Shown: positions 23,943 to 24,663 of the stretch, piece by piece | How positions within the stretch are numbered: the stretch's first letter is position 1 | Layout of the letters: the number at the start of each line of letters is the position of its first letter | DNA from: Mobula hypostoma | Lineage: Eukaryota | NCBI RefSeq assembly: GCF_963921235.1 | Contig: NC_086097.1 | Location: 125,056,001-125,120,000, forward strand | Length of the DNA stretch: 64,000 nt | Direction: 5' to 3' | Program-made: the position numbers and the translations under genes | The notes under the pieces: generated by a model | The model's input: only the letters and a program-made list of their open reading frames with translations | Told to the model about the DNA's origin: nothing | Database searches by the model: none

Positions 23943-24663
23943 AAACACAAAATACTCTGCAGACGCTGGGGTCAAAGCAACATGCACAACACACTGGAGG
24001 AACTCAGCAGGTTGGGCAGCATCCGTGGAAATGAACAGTCAACATTTCGGGCCAAGACCCTTCGTCAGGACTGAAGGGGGAAGGGGCAGAGCCCCTATAA
24101 GGAAGGTGGGGGGACGGTGGGAAGGAGAAGGCTGGTAAGTGCCAGGTGAAAAACCAGTAAGGGGAAAGATCAAGAGGTGGGGAAGAGGAGCTGTCCATAC
24201 ATGGCCTCCTCTACTGCCATGATGAGGCTAAACTCAGGTTGGAGGAGCAACACCTCATATACCGTCTGGGTGGTCTCCAGCCCGTTGGTATGAACATAGA
24301 ATTCTCCAACTTCTGGTAATTCCCTCCCCCTCCCTTCCCCTATCCCTATTTCACTCTGCCCCCTCTGCCAGATGCCTATCACCTCCCTCATGGTTCTGCC
24401 TCCTTCTACTACCCATTGTGCTTTCCCCTATTCCTTCTTCACCTTTCCTGCCTATCACCTCCCTGCTTCCCCTCCCCCACCCCTTACTGGTTTTTCACCT
24501 GGCACCTACCAGCCTTCTCCTTCCCACCCTCCCCTCACCTTCTTGATAGGGGCTCTGCCCCTTCCCTCTTCAGTCCTGACGAATGGTCTTGGCCTGAAAC
24601 ATTAACTGTTCGTTTCCACGGATGCTGCCCGACCTGCTGAGTTCCTCCAGCGTGTTGTGCGTG
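23943..24663. mobile_element. Penelope-like insertion with inverted terminal repeats and a 14-bp TSD
   Basis: TSD GAGCTTAGTGACAT at 23929-23942 and 24664-24677; about 200-bp arms (23985-24187 and 24472-24661) are reverse complements; GIY-YIG C-terminal remnant at 24190-24320. Confidence 0.85.
24036..24073 (-). ncRNA. Minimal type I hammerhead ribozyme motif in a Penelope terminal repeat
   Basis: Minus strand reads CAGTC CTGACGA A GGG TCTTGG CCC GAAA TG TT GACTG: stem I CAGTC/GACTG, CUGANGA box, stem II GGG/CCC, GAAA box, NUH triplet GUU. Confidence 0.75.

What the first reader, a model, noticed from the sequence alone, without database searches (positions are those of the whole stretch)
24036..24073. 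Core-intact minimal hammerhead ribozyme hidden in the commonest repeat of this window
Seen: the minus strand reads CAGUC-CUGACGA-A-GGG(UCUUGG)CCC-GAAA-UG-UU-GACUG, a 38-nt type I hammerhead with all core nucleotides, a 5-bp stem I, a 3-bp stem II and almost no stem III. Decayed copies lie at about 8774-8811(-), 24571-24608(+), 38255-38290(-), 39430-39465(-), 42096-42132(+), 47993-48026(+), 48210-48241(+), 50457-50494(-), 56092-56127(+) and 58262-58294(+). Their implied consensus is CAGTCCTGATGAAGGGTCTCGGCCCGAAACGTCGACTG, with a palindromic ACGT at stem III and a GUC cleavage triplet. Established: Penelope-like retroelements carry minimal type I hammerheads whose palindromic stem III favours dimeric cleavage. 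Inference: about 11 copies in 64 kb suggests a very large genome-wide ribozyme family in this lineage, with some members possibly able to cut host pre-mRNA.
Basis: partly seen in the sequence, partly recalled or inferred. Interest (0 to 1): 0.72.

Follow-up and report, generated by a model that had tools for sequence, protein, structure and literature searches.

The report
Penelope retrotransposon hammerhead relic in ray
A complete small hammerhead (self-cutting RNA) motif is really there, but it is the standard end-piece of a broken Penelope-like jumping gene scattered through this window of what is likely a ray genome, a known arrangement, and this copy is likely inactive.

Summary
The motif at 24036-24073(-) is real: full hammerhead core, 5-bp stem I, 3-bp stem II plus a U-G pair; chance 0.007 per window. 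All ten other listed copies exist; 3 of 11 keep the core. It is the inverted arm of one 721-bp, 5'-truncated Penelope-like element (PLE): GIY-YIG-type ORF end, sister motif at 24571-24608(+), one-sided 38-nt tail, 14-bp target duplication inside a LINE. Relatives point to a Neptune-type PLE of a stingray-like ray. Minimal hammerheads in PLE repeats were described in 2014 (PMC4209133). This copy has lost the stem III palindrome, would be locked in a 190-bp fold-back, and has no intact same-strand partner in the window; copies decay neutrally, without covariation. Cutting of host pre-mRNA is unsupported. One extra lead: the pyrimidine-rich stretch between ORF stop and motif looks like a 258-nt intron whose acceptor lies inside stem I, as in Drosophila Penelope; the donor is used in ray gene models, the acceptor is unproven. 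Verdict: new member of a known kind, low interest.

The parts
24036..24073 (-). Minimal type I hammerhead motif, core and both stems intact; predicted cut between 24041 and 24040; helix III palindrome degraded to two A-U plus two G-U pairs
23943..24164 (-). Inverted, 5'-truncated arm of the insertion (23975-24164 is 91% identical to 24480-24669)
23943..23980 (-). 38-nt extra 'tail' present on the inverted arm only
   Evidence: hallmark described in PMC8557442
24165..24187 (.). 23 nt at the junction of the two arms with no other match in the window; pyrimidine-rich on the minus strand, probably the continuation of the inverted arm (inferred)
24188..24319 (+). C-terminal 43 codons and stop of the PLE ORF (end of the GIY-YIG endonuclease region), 88% identical to residues 407-448 of P0003
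24316..24573 (+). Pyrimidine-rich stretch (78% C+T) between ORF end and motif; candidate 258-nt GT-AG intron, donor overlapping the stop codon, acceptor inside the 5' strand of stem I (unproven)
24571..24608 (+). Sister hammerhead motif of the direct arm; core intact, innermost stem I pair and first stem II pair broken
24609..24663 (+). 3' end of the element, stops 38 nt short of the inverted arm's end
23929..23942 (+). Left copy of an exact 14-bp target-site duplication
   Evidence: 4 of 3000 random flank pairs give such a match
24664..24677 (+). Right copy of the 14-bp target-site duplication
23546..23938 (+). Host LINE reverse-transcriptase remnant, left of the insertion (query residues 54-183)
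24664..25095 (+). Same LINE remnant resuming right of the insertion (query residues 178-329)
8774..8811 (-). Decayed copy (C3 and G12 changed) at the end of a PLE piece reaching to about 9324
38255..38292 (-). Decayed copy (G12, U16.1 changed); different upstream sequence
39430..39467 (-). Decayed copy (U4, U16.1 changed); upstream related to the 38255 copy only near the motif
42095..42132 (+). Core-intact copy with weakened stems and an AUAU palindrome
47993..48026 (+). Motif (A13 changed) at the start of a short insertion nested in an older PLE copy, with an 11-bp duplication
48210..48240 (+). Motif of the older host copy, stem II deleted
50457..50494 (-). Decayed copy (U16.1 changed), short insertion
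56090..56127 (+). Decayed copy (U16.1 changed) ending the longest PLE remnant of the window (54729-56240, linker and endonuclease region)
58258..58294 (+). Copy with one core base deleted, one arm of a short head-to-head pair

Best explanation
The motif is the minimal hammerhead that sits in the terminal repeat of an endonuclease-bearing Penelope-like retroelement, likely of the Neptune type, and this copy is the inverted arm of a 5'-truncated insertion and is likely inert. Shown: the motif, the adjoining ORF end, the inverted arm, the one-sided tail, the 14-bp target duplication and the interrupted LINE. Inferred from published work on other PLEs: in an active tandem element two motifs would pair through the 4-nt palindrome (or be folded by the element's own protein) and cut slowly after GUC; the insertion was made from uncut RNA by target-primed reverse transcription starting downstream of the motif. 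Inferred here: after insertion the copy drifted (arms 9% apart), lost the palindrome by CpG decay, and any RNA made through the locus would snap back into a 190-bp hairpin that buries the motif.
For: Anatomy. ORF end 85-93% identical to PLE-derived pieces in ray proteins, and 88% to P0003, which runs RT-like region, Cys linker, GIY-YIG; full-length RT+GIY-YIG relatives at up to 52% identity, 29 of 38 with the Cys linker-plus-EN pattern. Motif fits the published consensus, including the extra base after A9 and G10.1-C11.1 (PMC4209133). Inertness: stem I/II pair probability 0.9-1.0 alone, 0.05-0.09 with 30-100 nt of flank, 0 in the whole locus, where 36 of 38 bases pair with the sister arm; helix III duplex +0.8 kcal/mol against -3.1 for the family palindrome; nearest same-strand copies 14 and 15 kb away, both core-mutated. 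Neutral decay: core non-CpG 7 of 90 changed, other non-CpG 8 of 157, CpG 32 of 72; covariation 0.114, reached by 244 of 500 shuffles. Published: monomer no cleavage, dimers low (PMC4209133); PAc ribozyme needs protein and is not needed for insertion (PMC11167929).
Against: No cleavage assay and no raw RNA reads. Equilibrium folding ignores co-transcriptional timing: on the minus strand the named motif is made after its partner arm, which favours sequestration, but a transcript starting inside the insertion would lack the partner. The copy does keep every core base and both stems, and GUU is an allowed triplet (own knowledge). No RT-coding part of the element lies in the window, so clade rests on relatives; Nematis shares the Cys linker and no tree was built. 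The neutrality test uses 9 copies chosen by likeness to the motif. Rfam gives no hammerhead hit.
Confidence: 0.85

Rival explanations
1. This copy (or others like it) is an active ribozyme that cuts a host transcript running through it.
For: It is the only one of 11 copies with full core and both stems; it folds stems I and II when isolated; the family is abundant enough that some same-strand pairs occur (5 pairs under 6.5 kb here).
Against: Buried in a 190-bp fold-back and misfolded with short flanks; palindrome lost; all 5 close same-strand pairs include a core-mutated or stem-deleted copy; no host exon identified in the window (long ORFs tested are retroelement-derived or unmatched; not a full exon search); metazoan minimal motifs do not cut as monomers (PMC4209133); 1 of 9 Xenopus dimer elements cut in vitro (bioRxiv 2026.07.22.740005).
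Confidence: 0.06
2. At family level the motif is kept less for cutting than as a structural signal of the element RNA, for example as protein-binding fold or as the 3' splice site of the element's own intron.
For: PAc catalytic mutants insert normally and no RNA ends map to the cut site (PMC11167929). Here 0 of 7 short copies with readable 5' ends start at the cut. The first three bases of stem I are a CAG after a pyrimidine tract in 6 of 7 main-family copies, with a branch-like motif 28-29 nt upstream in 4 of 4 checked.
Against: The catalytic core is kept across PLE families of 40 animal species (PMC4209133 Fig. S3) and PAc does cut with protein; the two roles are not exclusive. The same CAG is needed for stem I pairing and the whole stretch is pyrimidine-rich, so acceptor-likeness is partly built in.
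Confidence: 0.2
3. The short copies are a separate non-autonomous, retrozyme- or SINE-like ribozyme family rather than PLE truncation products.
For: Many copies are only motif plus tail; the 47993 unit has its own duplication; two copies (38255, 39430) have upstream sequence unrelated to the main family.
Against: Five copies carry the PLE ORF end upstream; 5' ends of short copies are scattered from position 0 to beyond the motif; no head-to-tail array of the unit, which defines non-LTR retrozymes in the preprint. The named copy belongs to an ORF-bearing insertion.
Confidence: 0.04
4. The motif is a chance resemblance.
For: No Rfam hit; folding z only -1.48; no covariation.
Against: Descriptor chance 0.007 per window, and the motif sits exactly where PLE hammerheads are described and fits their published consensus.
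Confidence: 0.02

Closest known systems
Minimal hammerheads (min-HHR) in the terminal repeats of metazoan PLEs (Cervera and De la Pena 2014, PMC4209133); nearest listed example by shape: Acropora digitifera Neptune motif
   Same: Type I, same core, extra base after A9, G10.1-C11.1, short stem I, 2-nt palindromic centre, NUH triplet, position at the 3' end after the GIY-YIG ORF, thousands of dispersed truncated copies.
   Different: No cartilaginous fish among the 56 motifs of 40 species in Fig. S3; stem II is at the short end (3-4 bp); the named copy has lost the palindrome.
Canonical EN+ PLE insertion structure (Craig et al. 2021, PMC8557442; Adineta Pen2a, PMC3846280)
   Same: 5'-truncated body, adjacent inverted 5'-truncated copy, 30-40-bp tail at one end only, target duplication.
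   Different: Only the last 43 codons of the ORF are left; no tandem, so no promoter-ORF unit.
PAc, Poseidon element of Anolis carolinensis (PMC11167929)
   Same: Hammerhead in the repeat, tail defined by two 3' ends downstream of the motif, no sign that inserts start at the cut site.
   Different: Other clade (no Cys linker in Penelope/Poseidon); its ORF starts inside the ribozyme; here the next ORF start is not located (no match of the tail peptide to relatives' N-termini).
Drosophila virilis Penelope 75-bp intron ending at helix I of its hammerhead (PMC4209133; PMC2377424)
   Same: Candidate intron here also ends just before the core (2 nt; about 4 nt in D. virilis from the published coordinates 491 and 496).
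   Different: Splicing shown by RT-PCR in Drosophila, only suggested here; candidate is 258-413 nt and its donor overlaps the ORF stop codon.
Non-LTR retrozymes (bioRxiv 10.64898/2026.07.22.740005)
   Same: Type I hammerhead related to PLE repeats; reported in one chondrichthyan genome.
   Different: Those are tandem arrays without ORF; these are dispersed truncated PLE ends.

Membership tests
min-HHR of metazoan PLEs | Core CUGANGA ... GAAA ... NUH | tested here: met
   11 of 11 core positions, U at 17
min-HHR of metazoan PLEs | Stems I and II form; extra base after A9; G10.1-C11.1 pair | tested here: met
min-HHR of metazoan PLEs | Palindromic 15.2-16.2 in place of helix III (family level) | tested here: met
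   CpG-restored family state, seen intact in copies 47989 and 58258 and in contig consensus; the named copy itself has decayed to A-U/U-G/G-U/U-A
min-HHR of metazoan PLEs | Located in the terminal repeat of a PLE | tested here: met
min-HHR of metazoan PLEs | Compensatory changes among families | tested here: inconclusive
   none above shuffles in 9 window copies; copies are dead members of few subfamilies, so power is low
min-HHR of metazoan PLEs | Self-cleavage as dimer or with protein | not testable with these tools
   no assay; only contigs, no raw RNA reads
Rfam hammerhead models | Covariance-model match | tested here: not met
   no hammerhead family at E<=5 on the window or E<=10 on 111 nt
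EN+ Penelope-like element | Single ORF with RT and C-terminal GIY-YIG endonuclease | tested here: inconclusive
   only the ORF end is in the window; it is 88% identical to P0003 (GIY-YIG E 8e-4, below cut-off), whose longer relatives carry RT and GIY-YIG
EN+ Penelope-like element | Inverted 5'-truncated copy, one-sided 30-40-bp tail, target duplication | tested here: met
EN+ Penelope-like element | Tandem or partial-tandem pseudo-LTR arrangement | tested here: inconclusive
   no full or tandem copy in the window; no genome held
Neptune clade | CX2-5CxxC linker between RT and EN | tested here: met
   P0003, P0006, P0008, P0027; 29 of 38 long relatives; decayed trace at window 55156-55491
Neptune clade | RT phylogeny (separates Neptune from Nematis) | not tested
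   no named reference sequences held
Non-LTR retrozyme | Head-to-tail tandem units each with a hammerhead | tested here: not met
   the 221-nt pair 47989/48210 is a nested insertion
Penelope-type intron ending at helix I | GT-AG, branch-like motif, pyrimidine tract at the right place | tested here: met
Penelope-type intron ending at helix I | Spliced junction in RNA | tested here: inconclusive
   one joint 24311 to 24577 in 2 of 4 runs, 1 contig each, 7 letters unplaced, among 40 joints of which 15 shown

The most novel reading that the evidence does not exclude
The ray Neptune-type element carries a spliceosomal intron that starts inside the ORF's stop codon and ends inside stem I of the hammerhead. 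Splicing would remove the stop (adding about 21 residues read through the ribozyme in this copy) and swap the outer stem I bases while keeping at least 3 pairs, so splicing and ribozyme folding would be coupled as in Drosophila Penelope, in another PLE clade and in a vertebrate; and the donor, spread in very many copies, feeds PLE exons into ray host genes.
Probability: 0.4. Interest if true: 0.42.

Novelty: new member of a known kind. Interest (0 to 1): 0.2.

Why it matters
As it stands it adds a cartilaginous-fish example to a ribozyme class described in 2014 and gives a clean textbook PLE insertion. The role of PLE hammerheads is still open (PMC8557442, PMC11167929), and a genome with about one motif per 6 kb (11 in this 64 kb) is a good place to test selection against intact motifs in introns, but this single dead copy does not answer it. 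If the candidate intron is real, the intron-ends-at-helix-I layout would be shared by distant PLE clades, which would bear on why PLEs keep introns and hammerheads together.

Tried and rejected
Whole genome: none held, so no genome-wide count or intron-orientation test. Rfam: no hammerhead hit; best matches were microRNA-precursor models on the short fold-backs at 27679-27768 and 49984-50078, all far below gathering score and explained by head-to-head PLE ends. Motif scans of metagenome and viral contigs: 0 matches each. Sequencing runs: no RNA holder listed; 6 small-share runs, contigs only, so RNA ends, strand and level could not be seen; the variant table hid 134 rows, so it cannot show that the core is invariant. 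Idea that the cut defines the 5' end of inserts: 0 of 7 readable ends at the cut; local alignments for the other 8 of 15 pieces are too decayed to read (the 59804 alignment starts at position 34 but matching bases continue upstream). Idea that the ATG 12-13 nt after the motif starts the next ORF: no match to N-termini of relatives. No protein among the 37 hits shows read-through into the motif. The family reference had one wrongly restored position and was redone; only values are used for it, except that both give -3.1 for the palindrome duplex. Lunse et al. 2017 (PMC5785218) is not held. Earlier-finding look-ups near the locus, by sequence and by one word set gave nothing.

Full report
Observation. 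Scored by position it has all 11 invariant core bases, U at position 17 (GUU triplet), five Watson-Crick pairs in stem I and three plus a U-G pair in stem II. A descriptor (core, 3-bp stems, NUH) hits 2 places in the window, this one and 42095, against 0.007 per window in 300 dinucleotide shuffles. The ten other copies are present. A profile built from 7 window copies finds 23 pieces of the motif-plus-tail unit and none in 5 local shuffles. Of the 11 listed copies 3 keep the core (24036, 24571, 42095); 9 were scored ungapped, the other 2 have deletions in stem II or the core. Rfam gives no hammerhead match and the folding z-score is only -1.48.

What it is part of. The motif lies in one arm of a 190-bp inverted repeat, 23975-24164 against 24480-24669, 173 of 190 identical. 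The block 23943-24663 is flanked by an exact 14-bp duplication (4 of 3000 random flank pairs match so well) and interrupts a LINE reverse-transcriptase remnant that resumes in register (residues 54-183, then 178-329). The direct arm starts with 43 codons and a stop, then a pyrimidine-rich stretch, the sister motif and a 55-nt 3' end; the inverted arm runs 38 nt further. An adjacent inverted 5'-truncated copy and a one-sided 30-40-bp tail are the described signature of Penelope-like elements (PMC8557442, passages; PMC3846280, passages).

Family and host. The 42-residue piece is 73-93% identical to 5 proteins (of 10 candidates) named from Hypanus sabinus and Hemitrygon akajei, with weaker hits named from skates, so the window is likely from a stingray-like ray (inference). 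P0003 continues N-terminally through a Cys linker and GIY-YIG motif into an RT-like region; its long relatives carry RT and GIY-YIG (45 hits among 2,824 candidates), and 29 of the 38 I checked have the CX2-5CxxC linker-plus-EN pattern. That linker marks Neptune and Nematis (PMC8557442); Neptune is the one reported from vertebrates in the preprint. No tree was built. Five window copies carry the ORF end; none reaches the RT. Laying 4 of the 6 listed runs on 24186-24664 placed 2,978-5,534 contigs per run, most 90% or less to 95% alike, and their loose-end consensus reproduces the palindromic stem III and GUC triplet.

How it most likely works. Published: metazoan minimal motifs have no real helix III and are thought to cut as dimers; a Schistosoma monomer did not cut and dimers cut weakly (PMC4209133, main text parts 1-2 of 4; review passages PMC6765202). 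The Anolis PAc ribozyme cuts only with the element's protein, its mutants insert normally, and no RNA ends map to the cut (PMC11167929, parts 1-2 of 4). For this copy: stems I and II form in isolation (probabilities 0.9-1.0) but not with 30 or 100 nt of flank (0.05-0.09), and in the whole locus 36 of 38 bases pair with the sister arm. The family palindrome has decayed to AUGU (duplex +0.8 against -3.1 kcal/mol); the two arms show opposite decay products of the same CpG, so the loss came after insertion (inference). The nearest same-strand copies are 14 and 15 kb away and core-mutated. Across 9 copies the core changes as often as the rest (7 of 90 against 8 of 157 non-CpG positions; 32 of 72 CpG positions, G12 among them), and covariation equals shuffles (244 of 500). 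Of 15 short pieces aligned, 7 have readable 5' ends and none starts at the cut. So the copy is most likely a neutral relic. Limits: equilibrium folding only, few copies, no RNA ends. I identified no host exon, but did not run a full exon search, so an enclosing intron is not excluded.

A lead beyond the finding. In 5 of 5 copies with the ORF end, the stop codon is part of G|GTAA, a donor-like site and the only such site in the four ORF-end pieces scanned. The stretch that follows is 78-80% pyrimidine and ends in CAG, the first three bases of stem I, in 6 of 7 main-family copies; a branch-like YTNAY lies 28-29 nt upstream in 4 of 4 checked. Lengths are 258-413 nt. For the donor there is outside support: predicted ray proteins leave the PLE exactly after its last codon, P0001 into the VKOR domain, and isoforms P0003 and P0085 diverging at that point; these are gene models whose RNA support I could not see, and P0005 leaves at another place. 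For the acceptor there is one hint: a joint 24311 to 24577, skipping the predicted 258 nt plus 7 unplaced letters, in one contig each of X5 and X4 (same study; X4 probably DNA; under 1% of local depth), among 40 joints of which 15 were shown and most are unrelated deletions. Against: the CAG is needed for stem I anyway, the whole stretch is pyrimidine-rich, the copies are homologous, and none of 37 protein hits reads through into the motif. The same layout is known in D. virilis Penelope, where the intron end maps to helix I (PMC2377424 passages). I give it 0.4.

Novelty. The class is known. No cartilaginous fish is among the 56 motifs of Fig. S3 in PMC4209133 (supplement text parts 1-2 of 3), and no listed paper in searches was seen to describe it or the candidate intron in sharks or rays (listings only for most). 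A 2026 preprint reports hammerhead-bearing retrozymes in one chondrichthyan (parts 1-2 of 5 and passages; its supplements are closed and may bear on this), and Lunse et al. 2017 could not be read. Earlier notes of this scan on the same genome (81 fit, 8 shown) reach the same reading and quote tens of thousands of intact motifs; these are unchecked AI notes and I could not test the counts. Hammerhead numbering and the tolerance of GUU are from my own knowledge.

Verdict. Observation confirmed, interpretation partly supported, new member of a known kind, interest 0.2.

Noticed in passing
window 24316-24573 (+), and homologous stretches of the copies ending at 8774(-), 42132(+), 56127(+): Candidate GT-AG intron from the ORF stop codon to stem I of the hammerhead, with branch-like motif 28-29 nt upstream of the acceptor.
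   Followed up: partly
P0001, P0003, P0085, P0002, P0005, P0007, P0009: Several predicted ray and skate proteins (VKORC1L1, ABHD14A, LAMP3, NMUR1, ATP synthase c) contain the PLE ORF end as first or last exon; three leave it exactly at the donor-like site.
   Followed up: partly
window 27650-27795, 49966-50092, 58180-58330: Short head-to-head pairs of PLE ends whose junctions fall within or beside the motif; they score weakly as microRNA-precursor hairpins in Rfam. No duplication of 7 bp or more found around them.
   Followed up: partly
window 47982-48145: A short PLE end (about 140 nt) starting at the hammerhead core is nested in an older PLE copy with an 11-bp duplication whose last 4 bases overlap the core.
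   Followed up: partly
window 38255-38458 (-) and 39430-39836 (-): Two copies with an upstream sequence unrelated to the main family; both begin a few bases before a CAG|GTA donor-like site and end in TTTTAAG just before the core. Possibly a second family.
   Followed up: partly
window copies 38255, 50457, 56090, 39840: U16.1 is changed to C in four copies although it is not a CpG position; this would break the essential A15.1-U16.1 pair and may mark a catalytically dead subfamily or a mutation hot spot.
   Followed up: no
window 24621 onward and equivalent positions in other copies: A conserved ATG 12-17 nt after the motif opens a short frame through the tail; no match to N-termini of long relatives.
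   Followed up: partly
window 13196-17263: A Gypsy-type LTR retrotransposon with long gag-like, RT, RNase H and integrase frames interrupted by stops; a related fragment at about 48700-49400.
   Followed up: no
window 33443-33985 (+): Protein-like frames broken by stops, not repeated in the window and with no Pfam match; possibly an old retroelement ORF1 or pseudogene.
   Followed up: partly
window 20955-21383: Tandem repeat of about 81-bp units giving repetitive open frames on both strands.
   Followed up: no
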